From: a virus
Taxonomy: Duplodnaviria > Heunggongvirae > Uroviricota > Caudoviricetes
Reading direction: 5' to 3' (one strand)
DNA length: 13,134 nucleotides
IMG/VR virus record: IMGVR_UViG_2681813271_000010
The notes under the pieces were generated by a model, which was not told the origin of the DNA, did not search any database, and was given only the letters and a program-made list of their open reading frames with translations. The position numbers were made by a program, and so were the translations under genes. Shown piece after piece: positions 621 through 7,253 of this stretch (positions within the stretch are counted from its first letter, which is position 1; each line of letters opens with the position of its first letter).

Positions 621-680
621 ATCCCGCCCCCCCCCCNNNNNNNNNNNNNNNNNNNNNNNNNNCAGACCTGTGCTATCGGA

Positions 681-714: not shown

Positions 715-1328
715 TGAATCACCTTTACCAATATTGTATGAAAAAACACGCACGACTAATTGACAATAATTTTCATTTCCATTAAAAAAGATCGCGTAGC
801 ATTCTTAATTCATGAGGAACTTTACCCGCCAGCAATCTGAGTAGCGAAAGCTGTTCATCCCCAATGTTTTTGCTGGCGGGTCCTTTTTTCTACGGTCCTC
901 CTCCCCGGAGGGGGGCATTTCATTATTTTTCTAATCGTTACTGGTGAGAAGGCGGAAGAAAAAGCCAGTTCTTCGCCCCTAAATAACAGCATGATTCCAG
1001 TCCATGCAAAATCTGATTTCCAGCTCACACATACCGAGCACTGTACAAAAAACCGCCAGCCAAGGCAGTTAAGAGTGTGTTCCCGGGGTTTGCTTAGAAT
1101 ATTTTGTAAGTTGTCCGAAGAGATATTTACAACACCAGAATGATGAATCATCAGTCCCCTGCCAGAGGTTCACTACGTAACCTGACCGACAATGCACCAT
1201 TCTGGTGCTGAAAAAAGAGCACTGGAACTGCAACAAAACAACATCACAGAACAGGAGATGGTAAGGAGTCAGACATTCCCACACAATATTGTGTCAGTGC
1301 AAATAACAACCTTCGTCTCAAATCTCGC

Positions 1329-1403
<75 letters not shown>

Positions 1404-1406
1404 ATA

Positions 1407-1482
<76 letters not shown>

Positions 1483-1484
1483 GC

Positions 1485-1561
1485 TGGCCCACCACCGAGG
1501 ACTCGAACCTCGCACCGTCAACTTAGAAGGTTGATGCTCTATCCGGATGAGCTAGTGGTGG
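1485..1561 (-). tRNA. tRNA-Arg (anticodon UCU, reads AGA)
   Basis: Minus-strand CCACCACTAGCTCATCCGGATAGAGCATCAACCTTCTAAGTTGACGGTGCGAGGTTCGAGTCCTCGGTGGTGGGCCA: acceptor CCACCAC/GTGGTGG (unusual C1-G72), D-stem GCTC/GAGC, anticodon stem TCAAC/GTTGA, loop CTTCTAA, CCA encoded. Confidence 0.8.
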
Positions 1562-1562
1562 T

Positions 1563-1639
1563 TGGTGGCCCTTGCTGGACTTGAACCAGCGACCTGGCGA
1601 TTATGAGTCGCTCGCTCTGACCAACTGAGCTAAAGGGCC
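1563..1639 (-). tRNA. tRNA with CAU anticodon, Ile2 (lysidine-type, ileX/ileZ-like) rather than Met
   Basis: Minus-strand GGCCCTTTAGCTCAGTTGGTCAGAGCGAGCGACTCATAATCGCCAGGTCGCTGGTTCAAGTCCAGCAAGGGCCACCA: acceptor with C4 and C5, anticodon loop CTCATAA, T-stem GCTGG/CCAGC. Closely resembles the E. coli ileX-type tRNA as I recall it. Confidence 0.8.
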
Positions 1640-1727
1640 GGAGGCAGAATAATAACCATATGTCATCACATCTGCAAACTCATCTGACCACCAGCACGTT
1701 TAACGTCCTGTGCCGTTTTTCAGGTAT

Positions 1728-1750
1728 AAAAAAACCCGCTCATCGGCGGG
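1728..1750 (-). terminator. intrinsic terminator (minus strand) between Q-like gene and tRNA cluster
   Basis: Stem CCCGC (1735-1739) / GCGGG (1746-1750) with 6-nt loop; A7 on plus (1728-1734) gives a U7 tail on the minus-strand transcript. Confidence 0.5.
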
Positions 1751-1846
1751 TTTAAGCTGTGTGGCGTAGTAACCACTCTTAACAGGATATTCAACTTTTT
1801 ACGATCNNNNNNNNNNNNNNNNNNNNNNNNNNNNNNNTTCAGGTAT

Positions 1847-1868
1847 AAAAAAACCCGCATAAAGCGGG
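1847..1868 (-). terminator. second intrinsic terminator (minus strand), near-copy of the 1728-1750 element
   Basis: Stem CCCGC (1854-1858) / GCGGG (1864-1868); A7 on plus (1847-1853) gives a U7 tail on minus. Shares the upstream TTCAGGTAT-A7-CCCGC context with the first terminator; a 31-N run (1807-1837) lies between them. Confidence 0.5.
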
Positions 1869-1947
1869 CTCTTTCAAATGTCCATGTCTGCTATTCGCCT
1901 CGCGGTACAGCTTTGCGAAGCGTACAAGAATTGAAGCAGTTTTTACG

Positions 1948-2502
1948 TCAAAAAGCAATAACTTTTTTCTCTATACCAAAAGCCATAACCATTGGTTTGT
2001 ACAAAATAAATTCTGCCACCTTTAGCCAATGCTCAATGCGTCTTTCACAGGTTCTTAAACTCCATTTCGGGTGTGCATCATTCAGCAGTTCAGCCATTTT
2101 GCGTTTGGTCATCCCCCGCCCCTCATACCGTTGCCGAAGGACGCTAATCAATCCTGGATGCTCTGCCAGCACCTCACTTATGACCCGATCAATACATAAC
2201 GCCTCTGCATCAGTACAATGCGCCAGCCAGCTCTTTTGCTTACCGTTAATCATATCCCGCAAAAAAGCCTCAAGTTCAGACTTGTTCAGACCTGCTTTTT
2301 TCATCCTCCGGAGCGCCTCGTTAATTGCCGTTTTTGTCAGCTTTTTAGAGGTCAACATCAGGTTAAACATATTCCCCGTCTTACCGCCACCAATATACGA
2401 CCAGCGCCCCCACATACGTAGTTTTCCCTGAATCCAGACACTTTCCAGCGTGGTGAGACGAAGGTGTTCTCCGCTTTTTCCTGTATTCGTTGGGTAAATC
2501 AT
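1948..2502 (-). CDS. putative late-gene antiterminator (Q-like, 184 aa); function assigned mainly by position
   Basis: ATG at 2502-2500 preceded by AAGGAGGG Shine-Dalgarno; ATGA overlap with the upstream gene in the intact copy at 5789-5792. Sits immediately upstream of two terminators, the tRNA cluster and the lysis cassette, which is the Q position in lambdoid phages. Family not recognised with certainty. Confidence 0.55.
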   Translation of the reverse strand: MIYPTNTGKSGEHLRLTTLESVWIQGKLRMWGRWSYIGGGKTGNMFNLMLTSKKLTKTAINEALRRMKKAGLNKSELEAFLRDMINGKQKSWLAHCTDAEALCIDRVISEVLAEHPGLISVLRQRYEGRGMTKRKMAELLNDAHPKWSLRTCERRIEHWLKVAEFILYKPMVMAFGIEKKVIAF

Positions 2503-2547
2503 AAATATCCCTCCTTTCTCCAGATTTCTTGTGTGCGAAAAACACCT
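2267..2547. repeat. 281-bp segment identical to 5557-5837, ending at an 11-N run
   Basis: Direct comparison of 2267-2547 with 5557-5837 shows an identical sequence (5' portion of the Q-like gene plus the last codons of the DUF1364-like gene). Copy 1 ends at the N-run 2548-2558; copy 2 begins right after the N-run 5546-5556. Confidence 0.85.
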
Positions 2548-2558
2548 NNNNNNNNNNN

Positions 2559-3008
2559 CGTGAACTCAACCTGACCGTGTTTATCGAAGTGGCTCAGTAA
2601 TGCGCATCCATCATTTTCGATAGATGTGTTTTGTGCCGCTGGTGGCTGTTTCTGGTTGAAATAACAGTCTTCCAGTTTTTCGAACACTTCCCACGCCTGA
2701 TCGGTTTCGAGCATTTTGGCGTGACGGGCTGCGCCACGTTCTGTCCAGAGGATGAGGGAGCGAACGTTACGGGCAATTTTCACAGAAACTCTTAAAGAGT
2801 TTTCGTTCTTCAACTCTCGTAACGCATCACCTTCTATCAGGAAAAAATGTTTACCTTCTATAAACCGTTCTTTGTTTCGATTGAAATTGTTTGTCAAACG
2901 CTGGCGCTCTGTTCCGTACAAATCAGCCAGCAGCTCTGTTGTCATGACAGGAAGATGGTTATGCGTAAGTGACGGGAGTTTTTCAATAGACGTGCGATTC
3001 ATAGACAT
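2559..3008 (-). CDS. ORF6N/antirepressor-like phage protein, 3' end truncated at N-run
   Basis: ATG at 3008-3006 with AAAGGA 6 nt upstream. Translation MSMNRTSIEKLPSLTHNHLPVMTTELLADLYGTERQRLTNNFNRNKERFIEGKHFFLIEGDALRELK... resembles ORF6N-domain antirepressor-type proteins (recalled, not searched). The frame runs into the N-run at 2548-2558, so the C-terminus is not visible. Confidence 0.5.
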
Positions 3009-3145
3009 GTCCTTTCGAATATTTTGATTTACCCCTTTTGAGAGGGTGACCGGGCGCTCAAAACCGTCGAAAGTCGGCGGGCGTATTTCCATTGCTGGTA
3101 TTGTATTAGCCGCACACCCGGTCATAAACCAAGAATTCTGGACAC

Positions 3146-3173
3146 AAAAAAACCACATGGCTATCGGGTGTGG
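3146..3173 (-). terminator. intrinsic terminator downstream of the Q (82/21-type) promoter region, tR'-like
   Basis: Minus-strand CCACACCCGATAGCCATGTGG followed by T7 (complement of A-run at 3146-3152). Confidence 0.5.
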
Positions 3174-3208
3174 ATACCGCTTTCGAGGTGTTTTGAGCAC
3201 CGCGGGGA

Positions 3209-3314
3209 AATGTAAACTGCAAACCTGAAACTGTCAACACCGTCAGGTTCCAATCCCGACGCCAGATTTTGCTGGCGCGTGAGGAATATAGCCCCGGACA
3301 ATGTGTCTGGTCAA
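3209..3314 (-). promoter_or_regulatory. two tandem sigma70-like promoters immediately downstream of Q (pR'-like)
   Basis: Minus strand: TTGACC (3314-3309), 18-bp spacer, TATATT (3290-3285); and TTGACA (3238-3233), 18-bp spacer, TACATT (3214-3209). Both fire toward the terminator at 3146-3173. Confidence 0.4.
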
Positions 3315-3318
3315 GCAC

Positions 3319-3911
3319 CTACATAATTCGTTCTACGTATCTGTCCATCTCCAGCCGGATATCAAGCATCATCAACATGCCATCAATAACCCNNNNNNNN
3401 NNNNNNNNNNNNNNNNNNNNNNNNNNNNNNNNNNNNNNNNNNNNNNNNNNNNNNNNNNNNNNNNNNNNNNNNNNNNNNNNNNNNNNNNNNNNNNNNNNNN
3501 NNNNNNNNNNNNNNNNNNNNNNNNNNNNNNNNNNNNNNNNNNNNNNNNNNNNNNNNNNNNNNNNNNNNNNNNNNNNNNNNNNNNNNNNNNNNNNNNNNNN
3601 NNNNNNNNNNNNNNNNNNNTGCCAATACAGGTATCCGAACACCCATGTTTCCGTGCCAGACTCATAAAAGTCATTCCACCTACGTAATAATCCACCAGCA
3701 AATCGTGCAAATCCTGATTTTTCTTGTTCAACCGGGCCATACAGCCACAAATTATCATTGCATCATCATCAGAACACTGAGGGCGTGATTTCACTTTCGA
3801 CGGAATTAACCCTTTAAAACCAGCAGCGATCGACGCCCAGGATACATCTTCATGAGTGTTTGCAGCCCAAGCCCCCCACCGTTCCATAACCTGCTGAATA
3901 TCACGCGCCAT
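3319..3911 (-). CDS. Q: antitermination protein Q (phage 82/21/933W type), interrupted by a 227-N run
   Basis: ATG at 3911-3909 overlapping the rusA-fragment stop (ATGGCGCGTGA). N-terminal [97 protein letters not shown]; after the N-run (3393-3619), in another frame, ...[23 protein letters not shown] then stop at 3321-3319. Both halves match the Q82/Q21 family as I recall it. Confidence 0.7.
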
Positions 3912-4122
3912 CGTTATCACCTGTGATTTCATAAATCTTCACGCCCAGTCGCCCACCAGGAACGAGCTGACCGCGCACAATATTGATTTCATCAAACTGC
4001 TCGTCGTCTATGAGTAGTCCGGCATGCGTCAGCGCATCCAGTGGTGCTTTCAGGATATTGTCCAGGTCACGACGGCGCTTATCCGGTGGCTCTGCAATAA
4101 TCTTTATCGCCAGCCTTCCGGA
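3901..4122 (-). pseudogene. rusA: rusA (Holliday junction resolvase) 3' fragment, cut by IS4
   Basis: Minus-strand frame from the IS4 left end reads [73 protein letters not shown], matching the C-terminal half of RusA (DRRRRDLDN motif). There is no start codon and the N-terminal half is absent. Confidence 0.75.
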
Positions 4123-4123
4123 C

Positions 4124-5549
4124 TAATGCCGATCAGTTAAGGATCAGTTGACCGATCCAGTGGCTGTGTAAGAATCCGGAAACGCTCACTTGTTTCCGGA
4201 TTTTTTTATGCACATTGGACAGGCTCTTGATCTGGTATCCCGTTACGATTCTCTGCGTAACCCACTGACTTCTCTGGGGGATTACCTCGACCCCGAACTC
4301 ATCTCTCGTTGCCTTGCCGAATCAGGTACTGTAACGCTACGCAAGCGCCGTCTTCCCCTCGAAATGATGGTCTGGTGTATTGTTGGCATGGCGCTTGAGC
4401 GTAAAGAACCTCTTCACCAGATTGTGAATCGCCTGGACATCATGCTGCCGGGCAATCGCCCCTTCGTTGCCCCCAGTGCCGTTATTCAGGCCCGCCAGCG
4501 CCTGGGAAGTGAGGCTGTCCGCCGCGTGTTCACGAAAACAGCGCAGCTCTGGCATAACGCCACGCCGCATCCGCACTGGTGCGGCCTGACCCTGCTGGCC
4601 ATCGATGGTGTGTTCTGGCGCACACCGGATACACCAGAGAACGATGCAGCCTTCCCCCGCCAGACACATGCCGGGAACCCGGCGCTCTACCCGCAGGTCA
4701 AAATGGTCTGCCAGATGGAACTGACCAGCCATCTGCTGACGGCTGCAGCCTTCGGCACGATGAAGAACAGCGAAAATGAGCTTGCTGAGCAACTTATAGA
4801 ACAAACCGGCGATAACACTCTGACGTTAATGGATAAAGGTTATTACTCACTGGGACTGTTAAATGCCTGGAGCCTGGCGGGAGAACACCGCCACTGGATG
4901 ATACCTCTCAGAAAGGGAGCGCAATATGAAGAGCTCAGAAAACTGGGTAAAGGCGATCATCTGGTGAAGCTGAAAACCAGCCCGCAGGCACGAAAAAAGT
5001 GGCCGGGACTGGGAAATGAAGTGACAGCCCGCCTGCTGACCGTGACGCGCAAAGGAAAAGTCTGCCATCTGCTGACGTCGATGACGGACGCCATGCGCTT
5101 CCCCGGAGGAGAAATGGCGGATCTGTACAGTCATCGCTGGGAAATCGAACTGGGATACAGGGAGATAAAACAGACGATGCAACTGAGCAGGCTGACGCTG
5201 AGAAGTAAAAAGCCGGAGCTTGTGGAGCAAGAGCTGTGGGGTGTCTTACTGGCTTATAATCTGGTGAGATATCAGATGATTAAAATGGCGGAACATCTGA
5301 AAGGTTACTGGCCGAATCAACTGAGTTTCTCAGAATCATGCGGAATGGTGATGAGAATGCTGATGACATTGCAGGGCGCTTCACCGGGACGTATACCGGA
5401 GCTGATGCGCGATCTTGCAAGTATGGGACAACTTGTGAAATTACCGACGAGAAGGGAAAGGGCCTTCCCGAGAGTGGTAAAGGAGAGGCCCTGGAAATAC
5501 CCCACAGCCCCGAAAAAGAGCCAGTCAGTTGCTTAACTGACTGGCNNNN
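4124..5549 (+). mobile_element. IS4 insertion sequence (about 1426 bp); last 4 bp of the right end hidden by N-run
   Basis: Left end TAATGCCGATCAGTTAAGG at 4124; right end ...CTTAACTGACTGGC at 5545 is its imperfect inverse, with the expected final ATTA falling under N 5546-5549. The length equals the IS4 size I recall. No target-site duplication is visible. Confidence 0.85.
4208..5536 (+). CDS. insG: IS4 transposase
   Basis: Translation [80 protein letters not shown]... (442 aa) is the IS4 transposase as I recall it. The ORF track begins 18 nt earlier at 4190 (MFPDFF), which is an alternative start. Confidence 0.9.
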
Positions 5550-5556
5550 NNNNNNN

Positions 5557-5792
5557 GCCTCAAGTTCAGACTTGTTCAGACCTGCTTTTTTCATCCTCCG
5601 GAGCGCCTCGTTAATTGCCGTTTTTGTCAGCTTTTTAGAGGTCAACATCAGGTTAAACATATTCCCCGTCTTACCGCCACCAATATACGACCAGCGCCCC
5701 CACATACGTAGTTTTCCCTGAATCCAGACACTTTCCAGCGTGGTGAGACGAAGGTGTTCTCCGCTTTTTCCTGTATTCGTTGGGTAAATCAT
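5557..5792 (-). pseudogene. 5' fragment of the Q-like gene (second copy), abutting the IS4 right end
   Basis: ATG at 5792-5790; encodes MIYPTNTGKSGEHLRL...LNKSELE, identical to the first 78 codons of 1948-2502, then runs into N-run/IS4. Lies inside the 281-bp repeat 5557-5837. Confidence 0.6.
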
Positions 5793-6079
5793 AAATATCC
5801 CTCCTTTCTCCAGATTTCTTGTGTGCGAAAAACACCTTCTGCATGCATCAGGCGTAATTCTTCTTTGGTGTAATCGCTGGTTTTTACCCGCCCGTCGATT
5901 AAATCGTGGCACGAGCTACAGGCAATCGCTGCCTGCATATCGTGTGGCTTTATCGCTGTTCCGCACGTTCCCGCCAGTCGGTAATGCGCCAGCACAGACG
6001 TTTCCGGATCGTGATTGCAGTAGCCAGGAATTCTGACGGTGCACATCTGCCCCCGCGCCGCTTTACGTAAATCCACCAT
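5789..6079 (-). CDS. Cys-rich nin-region phage protein (DUF1364-like, recalled)
   Basis: ATG at 6079-6077 overlaps the upstream stop (TAATG); stop overlaps the Q-like start (ATGA). MVDLRKAARGQMCTVRIPGYCNHDPETSVLAHYRLAGTCGTAIKPHDMQAAIACSSCHDLIDGRVKTSDYTKEELRLMHAEGVFRTQEIWRKEGYL has several Cys pairs. Confidence 0.65.
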   Translation of the reverse strand: MVDLRKAARGQMCTVRIPGYCNHDPETSVLAHYRLAGTCGTAIKPHDMQAAIACSSCHDLIDGRVKTSDYTKEELRLMHAEGVFRTQEIWRKEGYL

Positions 6080-6678
6080 TACGCAAACTCCAGCAGCTGC
6101 GCGGCCACATTTTCGACTTGTTCCGGAGAGGAAAATTTACGGAACAGAATCCAGTTCCACAGCACATTCAGAACAGATTTATAAACCTGCTGAAACTCGG
6201 TTTCGTCCATATTCGCAAACGCGATAGATTTCGCCCGACACCCACGGCTACCGTCCGGATAAAAATGCTCGGTGTAAAATCCGGCCTGAATGGCTACCCA
6301 CTCGCGGAAAGCCTCAAACGACTTTAGCAATGCCGTATCACTGGTTCTGCGTGTCGCAACTGTATTCAGATATTGCTCTGCGGCTTCGCTCAGAGCTGGC
6401 GTATGTTCCCGGCCTACTGATTCACACAGGTAATCAACGAAACCGGACACCAGTTTTCGTTCGCGAGGCGTGATCGCCCCACCGACCGGAGTCCAGTAAT
6501 CGAAACCCAGTTGCAGGAGTTTGAAAAAACGCTTGTGGAATGCGTAGTTACACACACGCTTAAAGTCTGCGTGTATCCACTCACCTATTTTGATTTGATG
6601 CAGAAAATCGCAACTCTCCGGCGTCGCCGGGAGAAGTAATCCGGAAGAGGTTTGTTTGACCAGTTGTATATGTGCCAT
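6079..6678 (-). CDS. nin-region phage protein (DUF1367-like, recalled), 199 aa
   Basis: ATG at 6678-6676 with GGAG 8 nt upstream (MAHIQLVKQTSSG...). The ORF-track start at 6720 is a TTG, so 6678 is preferred. Translationally coupled to the downstream gene. Confidence 0.6.
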   Translation of the reverse strand: MAHIQLVKQTSSGLLLPATPESCDFLHQIKIGEWIHADFKRVCNYAFHKRFFKLLQLGFDYWTPVGGAITPRERKLVSGFVDYLCESVGREHTPALSEAAEQYLNTVATRRTSDTALLKSFEAFREWVAIQAGFYTEHFYPDGSRGCRAKSIAFANMDETEFQQVYKSVLNVLWNWILFRKFSSPEQVENVAAQLLEFA

Positions 6679-6716
6679 CGGCTTTCTCCGGTGGCACGGT
6701 GTTACACAGCAGGAGT

Positions 6717-7004
6717 TCAATCCTGCTCAAGATTGTAGATGAGTTTATTCTTCAGCAAAAGCAGAAAACCAGCCTTAAAACCAATCTCTTTCAAAACCCG
6801 TAATGATGTGACAAATTCGTCCTCACGCAAAATAAAACCGTCCGTCAGAAGTCCATTACAAAAATAAAATAACACAGCACCGCTCTTCCTTTGTTGAGAT
6901 TGCAAACATCTAATGCGGCAATGGCTGACAATCGCTCCATTCTCAACGCGCACAGCATAGAGGCCATTTTCACTAAAAATTTCACGCAATTCTTCGATTT
7001 TCAT
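6717..7004 (-). CDS. hypothetical small phage protein (95 aa)
   Basis: ATG at 7004-7002 with GGAAGGA 7 nt upstream; MKIEELREIFSENGLYAVRVENGAIVSHCRIRC.... First gene of an apparent four-gene unit with the next three genes downstream. Confidence 0.55.
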   Translation of the reverse strand: MKIEELREIFSENGLYAVRVENGAIVSHCRIRCLQSQQRKSGAVLFYFCNGLLTDGFILREDEFVTSLRVLKEIGFKAGFLLLLKNKLIYNLEQD

Positions 7005-7085
7005 CTTCAGAATCCTTCCAGATAAATAGCTCTCCCCTGTTCGGGGTCCATCCCTCTTCTCCCTGCGCGCTACTTAAGTGAGTCG

Positions 7086-7113
7086 ATTCTATCTGCGAAG
7101 GTGCGCGAATCAA
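7086..7113 (-). promoter_or_regulatory. candidate sigma70 promoter for the 7004-5789 gene set
   Basis: Minus strand TTGATT (7113-7108), 16-bp spacer, TAGAAT (7091-7086), about 80 nt upstream of the ATG at 7004. Confidence 0.35.
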
Positions 7114-7133
7114 ATTCACCGGAAATAAACAAC

Positions 7134-7176
7134 AAAAAACCCGCCGAAACGCTGAGAGATCACAGCGATGGGCGGG
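7134..7176 (-). terminator. intrinsic terminator at the 3' end of the hok mRNA
   Basis: Stem CCCGCC (7140-7145) / GGCGGG (7171-7176) with a long loop; on the minus strand followed by a U-run (complement of A-run 7134-7139). Confidence 0.5.
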
Positions 7177-7253
7177 TTAAGTGCGGGTGCGTTGAGGATG
7201 CCTGACACATCAGAGGTGGGCGGGGATGGGATCAGCTCCCCGCCCGGTCACTC

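What the first reader, a model, noticed from the sequence alone, without database searches (positions are those of the whole stretch)
3901..5556. Complete IS4 cuts rusA, with no target-site duplication and an unrelated right flank
The IS4 left end abuts codon-phase rusA sequence, leaving only the C-terminal 73 codons. The right flank is the interior of the Q-like gene, not the missing rusA 5' half, and the visible flanks cannot form the 11-13 bp duplication that IS4 normally makes (left flank ends GCCTTCCGGAC, right flank begins GCCTCAAG after 7 masked bases). This indicates recombination between two IS4 copies or a scaffold join at the IS, and rusA is inactivated in this copy.
Basis: partly seen in the sequence, partly recalled or inferred. 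Interest (0 to 1): 0.4.

Follow-up and report, generated by a model that had tools for sequence, protein, structure and literature searches.

The report
IS4 in rusA; right flank misjoined
An ordinary IS4 insertion sequence really does cut a prophage rusA gene in this Shigella sonnei draft, but its "unrelated right flank with no target duplication" comes from a scaffold that interleaves contigs of two similar prophages, not from a rearrangement.

Summary
IS4 runs from 4124 to 5545, with its last 4 nt lost in an N run. It abuts the last 73 codons of rusA, and after 11 N comes an unrelated gene.

The N runs are scaffold gaps, not length-faithful masks. In four directly measured cases they replace much shorter real sequence (227 N for 21 nt, 146 for 58, 25 for 14, 26 for 2). 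All three internal repeats of the window abut an N run.

The 3-kb block 2559-5545 (ORF6N'-Q-'rusA-IS4) is bracketed by two 11-N gaps. The contigs on either side, 1838-2547 and 5557 onward, overlap by 281 identical nt. Each is 100% identical to one contiguous stretch of S. sonnei 53G, where the DUF1133 gene is intact.

The block itself, together with window 1041-1806, is 100% identical to a second S. sonnei prophage contig: DnaB-hyp85-RusA-Q-hyp72-ORF6N-tRNAs, with rusA intact.

So two prophage paths were interleaved. The rusA'|IS4 junction is real: it lies in contiguous sequence, fits the IS4 target pattern, and recurs in an independent metagenome contig. The IS4|DUF1133 adjacency is a scaffold join. 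The true right flank is most likely an 11-14 bp duplication followed by the rusA 5' half. The finding is ordinary and of low interest.

The parts
3901..4123 (-). 3' fragment of rusA: codons 51-123 plus stop, overlapping the start of Q by 11 nt. It ends at the IS4 left terminus.
   Evidence: Translation SGRLAIKIIAEPPDKRRRDLDN...GDNDGA*. Pfam RusA E = 1.6e-7. 100% identical to the intact 123-aa rusA of S. sonnei contig L040.
4124..5545 (+). IS4 element: 1422 of 1426 bp visible, with the last 4 nt in the gap. IRL is 4124-4141. The visible part of IRR is 5532-5545.
   Evidence: 1 nt different from an annotated IS4 in FDAARGOS_944. The IRL is matched uniquely in the window. IRL and IRR agree at 16 of 18 positions, read directly.
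4190..5536 (+). IS4 transposase ORF, intact (448 aa from TTG; 442 aa from the ATG at 4208).
   Evidence: Pfam Nterm_IS4 3.2e-33 and DDE_Tnp_1 8e-32. The exact protein occurs in 771 blocks of public assemblies, with at least 8 copies in one genome.
5520..5545 (-). Terminator-like hairpin (11-bp stem followed by a T run) just inside the IS4 right end. It faces transcription that enters from the phage early side.
   Evidence: Consensus scan only. A polar effect on Q is an inference.
5546..5556 (.). 11-N scaffold gap. It hides the last 4 nt of IS4 and the true right flank.
   Evidence: The N runs are not length-faithful. An 11-N run occurs three times, each time where the flanking contigs overlap or conflict.
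5557..5837 (-). Start of the prophage-1 contig: the 5' 236 nt of DUF1133 (5557-5792) plus 45 nt of DUF1364. It is an exact second copy of 2267-2547.
   Evidence: 281/281 identical. Window 5557-8425 is 100% identical to S. sonnei 53G L019 9122-6254.
1838..2547 (-). Prophage-1 contig carrying the complete DUF1133 gene (1948-2502) and the last 45 nt of DUF1364. It was misplaced between two parts of prophage 2.
   Evidence: 100% identical to L019 9551-8842, overlapping the next prophage-1 contig by 281 nt. DUF1133 is 184/184 aa.
2548..2558 (.). 11-N scaffold gap at the left edge of the prophage-2 block.
   Evidence: In L040, window 1806 and window 2559 are only 142 nt apart. The window instead has 31 N, a 710-nt prophage-1 contig and 11 N.
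2559..3392 (-). Prophage-2 sequence: ORF6N codons 1-148 (2559-3002), the remnant of hyp72 (3106-3255) and the 3' end of Q (3319-3392).
   Evidence: 100% identical to S. sonnei contigs L040 and L041. Gene map of L040.
3393..3619 (.). 227-N gap inside the Q gene. The real sequence here is 21 nt.
   Evidence: L040 has CTTCCGCGTTCTGCAGGCGCT between the flanks. Intact Q is 128 aa (P0133).
3620..3911 (-). 5' part of antiterminator Q (PF06530), residues 1-97.
   Evidence: Pfam 5e-42. Identical to S. sonnei Q proteins P0133 and P0134 over these residues.
1041..1806 (-). Prophage-2 continuation downstream of ORF6N: four tRNA genes (1329-1639) and the prophage-2-specific tail 1740-1806.
   Evidence: 100% identical to L040 4327-3562. 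tRNAs found in both. The fork from prophage 1 follows a shared 21-mer.

Best explanation
The window is part of a short-read draft scaffold of Shigella sonnei in which contigs from two related lambdoid prophages were threaded into one line.

Prophage 1 reads replication genes - DUF1367 - DUF1364 - DUF1133 - tRNAs - lysis. It is represented by 1838-2547 and by 5557 onward. These two pieces overlap by 281 nt and are contiguous in complete S. sonnei genomes.

Prophage 2 reads DnaB - hyp85 - rusA - Q - hyp72 - ORF6N - tRNAs - lysis. It is represented by 1041-1806 and 2559-5545.

In prophage 2 of this strain, a canonical IS4 transposed into rusA after codon 50, at a site with the A/T-flanked pseudo-palindromic shape that IS4 prefers. 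The insertion separates the first 50 codons from the last 73 and so inactivates rusA.

Because IS4 is multicopy, the contig stops 4 nt before the IS4 right end. The scaffolder then placed the next prophage-1 contig after an arbitrary 11-N gap.

Shown:
- the left junction;
- the intact IS4;
- the interleaving of the two paths;
- the non-faithful gap lengths.

Inferred:
- the true right flank is an 11-14 bp copy of (C)CAGCCTTCCGGAC followed by the rusA 5' half, hyp85 and DnaB;
- the inward-facing terminator-like hairpin at the IS4 right end makes the insertion polar on Q.
For: 1. The N runs are gaps. Measured against relatives that are near-identical across each gap:
   - 227 N replaces 21 nt (L040);
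   - 146 N replaces 58 nt, 25 N replaces 14 nt, and 26 N replaces 2 nt after an over-long poly-C run;
   - the Q reading frame would break if the 227 N were real (intact Q is 128 aa).
2. All three internal repeats of the window abut N runs.
3. Windows 1838-2547 and 5557-8425 are both 100% identical to S. sonnei 53G, at L019 8842-9551 and 6254-9122. They overlap there by 281 nt, and DUF1133 is intact in all ten complete or large S. sonnei-type loci fetched.
4. S. sonnei contig L040 is 100% identical to window 3620-4123, 3246-3392, 2559-3255 and 1041-1806. It joins window 1806 to window 2559 with only 142 nt, and it has an intact 123-aa RusA preceded by hyp85 and DnaB.
5. Eleven canonical IS4 copies all have 11-14 bp duplications. 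Their T run starts 14-17 nt from the IS end. The rusA site fits this (16 nt).
6. An independent metagenome contig (L017) has IS4 at the same rusA position in an allele 94.7% identical.
Against: - The reciprocal junction (IS4 right end, duplication, rusA 5' half) was not found in any collection searched. The true right flank is therefore inferred, not seen.
- The source assembly itself was not identified, so read-pair evidence could not be inspected.
- S. sonnei genomes carry two or three near-identical copies of the DUF1367-DUF1364-DUF1133 module. An IS4-disrupted extra copy cannot be formally excluded.
- It is unexplained why the prophage-1 contigs end at exactly L001 7281 and start at exactly 7001.
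Confidence: 0.85

Rival explanations
1. Real homologous recombination between two IS4 copies. One copy sat in rusA of prophage 2 and one in a DUF1133 gene of a prophage-1-type module. The product is a hybrid prophage reading ...DUF1364-DUF1133'-IS4-'rusA-Q....
For: - IS4 is multicopy in these genomes: at least 8 copies of the identical transposase in one genome.
- S. sonnei carries several copies of the DUF1133 module, so an intact copy and a disrupted copy could coexist.
- The scaffolder did place these contigs side by side.
Against: - The adjacency exists only across an N gap.
- The DUF1133 flank does not look like an IS4 target. Its T run starts at least 29-36 nt from the IS end, against 14-17 nt in 11 of 11 real sites.
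- No IS4|DUF1133 junction was found in 5426 E. coli complete genomes, in IMG/VR or in the S. sonnei loci fetched.
- The interleaving also explains the second 11-N junction and the 281-nt overlap. Recombination explains neither.
Confidence: 0.07
2. The scaffold order is literally true. A 3-kb prophage-2 segment ending at the IS4 terminus is inserted into prophage 1 and flanked by a 281-bp direct duplication, for example through Campbell-type integration of a circular intermediate or an unusual IS-driven event.
For: - The sequence as written has this structure.
- Long variable duplications of 8-514 bp are reported for IS1549 and IS1634, which belong to a different family (PMC2266710).
Against: - Both edges of the 'insert' coincide exactly with N runs.
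- The same window shows two further paralogue-next-to-paralogue duplications at N runs (8572-8716 against 8749-8893; 9130-9429 against 9521-9820).
- IS4 copies make 11-14 bp duplications.
- The left part of the 'insert' is contiguous with window 1806, not with DUF1364, in S. sonnei contig L040.
Confidence: 0.03
3. The N runs are length-faithful masks, and IS4 caused an adjacent deletion or rearrangement that removed the rusA 5' half and fused IS4 to DUF1133.
For: With exactly 7 hidden bases the flank would begin CAAAAAAGCCTC. That starts with CA, as several IS4 duplications do.
Against: - Every N run that could be measured directly, 4 of 4, is longer than the real sequence in relatives that are near-identical across each gap. 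The other two that could be checked, 31 N and 11 N, bracket an inserted prophage-1 contig where L040 has 142 nt in all.
- The two genes belong to different prophages, so no simple adjacent deletion can connect them.
Confidence: 0.02

Closest known systems
IS4 of Escherichia coli / Shigella (IS4 family, IS4 subgroup; insG in K-12)
   Same: - 1426 bp.
- 18-bp terminal inverted repeats matching at 16 of 18 positions.
- A single DDE transposase with the Nterm_IS4 domain.
- 1 nt different from an annotated copy.
- The insertion site has the A-rich / short palindrome / T-rich shape seen at 11 other copies.
   Different: The 10-13 bp direct repeat expected for the subgroup (PMC2266710, Table 1) cannot be seen, because the right flank is missing from the assembly.
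RusA Holliday-junction resolvase of lambdoid prophages (Pfam PF05866; DLP12 rusA)
   Same: - Same family.
- Same gene neighbourhood: rusA overlaps the start of Q (PF06530).
- The intact S. sonnei allele is 123 aa.
   Different: - Only residues 51-123 remain next to IS4, so the gene is disrupted.
- In the classical K-12 rus suppressors, an IS inserts upstream and activates rusA (my recollection of the literature, not checked here). Here the IS lies inside the coding sequence.
Scaffolding artefact: paralogous or alternative-path contigs placed in series with minimum-size N gaps
   Same: - Repeat copies end exactly at N runs.
- Gap lengths are unrelated to the real distances.
- Removing the block and merging the 281-nt overlap restores the reference structure at 100% identity.
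   Different: The assembler, the scaffolder and the read data are unknown, so the precise cause of the contig boundaries is not established.
IS-mediated recombination between prophages in Shigella and E. coli
   Same: Multicopy IS elements in several similar prophages provide the substrate for such events.
   Different: There is no contiguous sequence across the proposed recombinant junction and no reciprocal junction. The flank is not IS4-target-like.

Membership tests
IS4 element (IS4 family, IS4 subgroup) | Length about 1426 bp with imperfect terminal inverted repeats (TAATGCC... ends) | tested here: met
   4124-5545 is visible. With the 4 hidden nt the length is 1426 bp, as in L015 and L016. 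IRL and IRR match at 16 of 18 positions.
IS4 element (IS4 family, IS4 subgroup) | Single DDE transposase with the IS4 N-terminal domain | tested here: met
   PF13006 3.2e-33 and PF01609 8e-32. The ORF is intact.
IS4 element (IS4 family, IS4 subgroup) | Direct target duplication of 10-13 bp (11-14 bp in the copies examined here) | tested here: inconclusive
   The left flank is present, but the sequence right of IS4 is a scaffold gap followed by a contig of another prophage. 11 of 11 other copies have duplications.
RusA family resolvase (PF05866) | Significant match to the family profile | tested here: met
   E = 1.6e-7, profile positions 76-110. 100% identical to the C-terminal 73 aa of the S. 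sonnei RusA in L040.
RusA family resolvase (PF05866) | Complete coding sequence (about 120 aa) | tested here: not met
   Only codons 51-123 adjoin IS4. A TAG from the IS4 end precedes them in frame. No copy of the 5' half exists in the window.
Antiterminator Q (PF06530) as the identity of the right-flank gene | Significant match to Phage_antitermQ | tested here: not met
   The fragment matches DUF1133 (7.7e-46) and not PF06530 at E <= 0.01. Full-length relatives carry only weak or faint PF06530 hits.
Real IS-mediated rearrangement (IS x IS recombination or adjacent deletion) | Uninterrupted sequence across both novel junctions | tested here: not met
   The right junction is an 11-N run, and the other edge of the block is also an 11-N run.
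Real IS-mediated rearrangement (IS x IS recombination or adjacent deletion) | Reciprocal junctions carrying the matching halves of the two duplications elsewhere in the genome | not testable with these tools
   The source assembly was not found.
Scaffold mis-join / interleaved paralogous contigs | N-run lengths unrelated to the true distances | tested here: met
   227 against 21, 146 against 58, 25 against 14, 26 against 2 nt.
Scaffold mis-join / interleaved paralogous contigs | Removing the block restores a known contiguous sequence, and the block continues a different known sequence | tested here: met
   Prophage 1 is restored at 100% identity to S. sonnei 53G. Prophage 2 matches S. sonnei contig L040 at 100%.

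The most novel reading that the evidence does not exclude
The scaffold order is real. In this S. sonnei strain, IS4 copies in two prophages recombined (or a 3-kb IS4-terminated segment integrated with a 281-bp duplication). The result would be a hybrid prophage in which the early region of one phage is fused through IS4 to the rusA'-Q late-control region of another.
Probability: 0.08. Interest if true: 0.3.

Novelty: not a real feature. Interest (0 to 1): 0.1.

Why it matters
The biology left standing is routine. A multicopy IS4 has knocked out a cryptic prophage resolvase gene in an IS-rich Shigella genome, and it probably also blocks read-through into the Q antiterminator.

The useful lesson is methodological. 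In this window every N run marks a contig boundary of unknown true content. Any "missing target duplication", "unrelated flank" or "tandem duplication" that touches an N run should therefore be treated as an assembly question first.

A minor positive result is that the same position in rusA carries IS4 in an independent metagenome contig and fits the IS4 target pattern. It is therefore a plausible recurrent insertion site.

Tried and rejected
1. Searching for the same arrangement elsewhere.
   - None of 5426 complete E. coli genomes has a place covering more than 52% of window 3620-6400; all top hits were IS4 alone.
   - The exact left-junction 35-mer and 26-mer are absent from the GTDB representative genomes and from IMG/VR.
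   - The hypothetical IS4|DUF1133 junction and the reciprocal IS4|rusA-5' junction are absent from IMG/VR.
   - Only one metagenome contig (L017) carries the left junction, and it ends inside IS4.

2. Treating the 11 N as 4 nt of IS4 plus 7 real bases. This was rejected because the N runs are not length-faithful.

3. Testing whether the DUF1133 flank looks like an IS4 target. It has A6-N29-T6, too widely spaced compared with 11 real sites, so it gives no support.

4. Testing whether paralogue SNPs explain the contig boundaries at L001 7001 and 7281. The module is 100% identical across most Shigella-type copies in that interval, so the boundaries remain unexplained.

5. Looking for truncated RusA N-terminal proteins as a proxy for the reciprocal junction.
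   - 54-aa "partial" RusA proteins ending ...SGRL exist in many drafts (P0143, P0155).
   - They are contig-end truncations at rusA nt 163 and contain no IS4 bases.
   - Partials of 48, 52, 53 and 56 aa also exist.
   - The likely cause is forks between paralogous rusA alleles. I do not count them as evidence.
   - No complete E. coli genome had that exact allele, so this could not be resolved.

6. IS4 transposase look-up. Ten places were returned and none was next to phage genes.

Full report
**What is in the sequence**

- IS4 begins at 4124 with TAATGCCGATCAGTTAAG and is visible to 5545.
- The N run 5546-5556 hides its last 4 nt (ATTA). That brings the element to the canonical 1426 bp found in two annotated copies.
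- The element differs by a single nucleotide from the FDAARGOS_944 copy.
- It encodes an intact transposase with Nterm_IS4 and DDE_Tnp_1 domains.
- On the minus strand, 3901-4123 encodes SGRLAIKII...GDNDGA*. This is a RusA match and is identical to residues 51-123 of an intact 123-aa S. sonnei RusA.
- A TAG supplied by the IS4 end precedes this fragment in frame, and only a 25-aa ORF remains. This copy of rusA is therefore dead.

After the 11 N the sequence is the 5' 236 nt of a DUF1133 family gene (Pfam 7.7e-46). It is not the antiterminator Q family, although DUF1133 proteins carry weak PF06530 hits and sit at the Q position ahead of the tRNAs and lysis genes. The real Q gene (PF06530) is downstream of rusA at 3319-3911.

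**The N runs are scaffold gaps**

The window has nine N runs. Where near-identical relatives are available, the N-run length never matches the real sequence.
- 227 N inside Q stand for 21 nt in S. sonnei contig L040. Intact Q is 128 aa, and the reading frame would break if the 227 N were real.
- 146 N stand for 58 nt, and 25 N for 14 nt.
- 26 N stand for 2 nt, following a poly-C run that is longer than in the relatives.

A self-comparison finds exactly three internal repeats, and each copy boundary coincides with an N run:
- 2267-2547 equals 5557-5837 (281/281);
- 8572-8716 resembles 8749-8893 (94.5%);
- 9130-9429 resembles 9521-9820 (90%). This last pair places a second, 78%-identical DUF977 allele directly before the resident one.

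This is the signature of contigs from paralogous prophages placed in series by a scaffolder. Three gaps of exactly 11 N occur where the neighbouring contigs overlap or conflict.

**Two prophage paths**

Mapping against an E. coli prophage (L001) and then against S. sonnei 53G (L019) shows that window 1838-2547 and window 5557-8425 are each 100% identical to 53G. They match L019 8842-9551 and 6254-9122. They overlap there by 281 nt, and in 53G they are one continuous sequence with an intact 184-aa DUF1133 gene.

The DUF1367 protein variant of the window points to S. sonnei. The ten contigs returned for it include S. sonnei 53G (HE616528; that assignment is from my own knowledge). In all ten loci DUF1133 is intact and directly follows DUF1364.

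The 3-kb block between the two 11-N gaps belongs to another prophage. The Q N-terminus of the window is identical to two S. sonnei proteins, P0133 and P0134. Their contigs (L038, L040; about 4.3 kb) read DnaB - hyp85 - RusA (123 aa) - Q (128 aa) - hyp72 - ORF6N - four tRNAs.

Windows 3620-4123, 3246-3392, 2559-3255 and also 1041-1806 are 100% identical to L040. In L040, window position 1806 and window position 2559 are separated by only 142 nt, the 3' end of ORF6N. The window instead has 31 N, the 710-nt prophage-1 contig and 11 N.

The two paths fork after a shared 21-mer at about 1739. The scaffold therefore reads prophage 2 / prophage 1 / prophage 2 / prophage 1. The join between the IS4 right end and DUF1133 is one of the switch points.

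**Is the IS4 insertion itself real?**

Yes, for three reasons.
- The rusA'|IS4 junction lies inside uninterrupted sequence and falls exactly at the IS terminus.
- Eleven other IS4 copies all carry 11-14 bp duplications. Each duplication sits in a short palindrome between an A-rich left arm and a T run that starts 14-17 nt from the IS end.
- The intact rusA target, aataatctttatcgc-CAGCCTTCCGGAC-aggtttaatttc, has the same shape, with its T run at 16 nt.

An independent metagenome contig (L017) has IS4 at the same rusA position in an allele only 94.7% identical, ending 53 nt into IS4. By contrast, the DUF1133 flank has its T run at least 29-36 nt away and does not resemble an IS4 target.

**Most likely mechanism**

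IS4 transposed by its normal cut-and-paste route into rusA of prophage 2. The expected product is rusA 5' half - duplication - IS4 - duplication - rusA 3' half - Q. Assembly stopped near the right end of the multicopy IS; the identical transposase occurs at least 8 times in one genome.

The predicted true right flank is (C)CAGCCTTCCGGAC followed by AGGTTTAATTTCAGCC..., the rusA 5' 149 nt, then hyp85 and DnaB. I did not see this flank.

A terminator-like hairpin just inside the IS4 right end faces incoming early transcription. A polar effect on Q is plausible but is only an inference from a consensus scan.

**Rivals**

Real IS4 x IS4 recombination, or a literal 3-kb insertion with a 281-bp duplication, cannot be excluded formally. 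S. sonnei has several copies of the DUF1133 module, and I could not find the source assembly or the reciprocal junction. Against them:
- both require contiguous evidence that does not exist;
- both leave the second 11-N junction and the other N-associated duplications unexplained;
- both conflict with the L040 continuity.

**Comparison with what is known, and verdict**

The element is IS4 itself; the family features are described in PMC2266710. The disrupted gene is an ordinary lambdoid rusA. The prophage-2 module is related to Stx-converting and phiP27-type phages.

The anomaly that made the finding interesting, the missing duplication and the unrelated flank, is an assembly artefact. Interest is low.

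Noticed in passing
window 3246-3255 (corresponds to L040 2559-2732): The window lacks 164 nt that all four S. sonnei reference contigs have. The missing stretch lies between two copies of the 10-mer GGTTCCAATC, and there is no N run at this spot. The lost segment contains the only terminator-like hairpin downstream of a promoter-like site just after Q (a PR'/tR'-like layout) and the first 69 nt of hyp72. If real, it could make late transcription less dependent on Q. It could also be an assembly error.
   Followed up: partly
window 8572-8716 vs 8749-8893; 9130-9429 vs 9521-9820: Two more near-tandem repeats (94.5% and 90% identity) abut N runs. The second gives a truncated extra DUF977 allele (78% aa identity) directly before the resident DUF977. 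These look like further paralogous-prophage contigs interleaved by the scaffolder.
   Followed up: partly
window 627-662: A run of 10 C (relatives have 6) leads straight into a 26-N gap that replaces only 2 nt. This looks like a homopolymer-associated contig end.
   Followed up: no
L042-L049 (public draft contigs), last bases: Many draft E. coli contigs (the index lists 162 blocks for one 54-aa partial RusA) end exactly at rusA nt 163. That is the position an IS4 insertion with a 14-bp duplication would give, and one contig adds a T where intact rusA has C. They contain no IS4 bases, and partials of other lengths exist. A fork between paralogous rusA alleles is more likely, but this was not resolved.
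   Followed up: partly
L004, L015, L016, L028-L031, L033, L035-L037 (IS4 copies): Across 11 IS4 copies the target is consistently an A run, 2-4 nt, an 11-14 bp duplicated core that is often palindromic, 2-4 nt, then a T run. Several look like intrinsic-terminator stems. One copy has a 14-bp duplication, slightly beyond the 10-13 bp quoted for the subgroup.
   Followed up: partly
window 10731-11529 and 11607-11993: The 262-aa replication-region gene and ydaT are broken into shorter ORFs (113 aa; 101 aa) relative to the E. coli relative L001. ORFs of the same short sizes are called in complete S. sonnei genomes, so these are probably lineage pseudogenes and not sequencing errors.
   Followed up: partly
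window 1948-2502 and relatives: DUF1133 occupies the position of the late antiterminator (between the nin-type genes and the tRNA/lysis cassette). It carries only weak PF06530 hits, so it may be a divergent Q-type antiterminator family that is still labelled DUF.
   Followed up: no
window 1563-1639: ARAGORN calls this tRNA as Met (anticodon CAT), whereas RefSeq annotates the same gene in relatives as tRNA-Ile. This is the usual ambiguity for lysidine-modified CAT anticodons.
   Followed up: no
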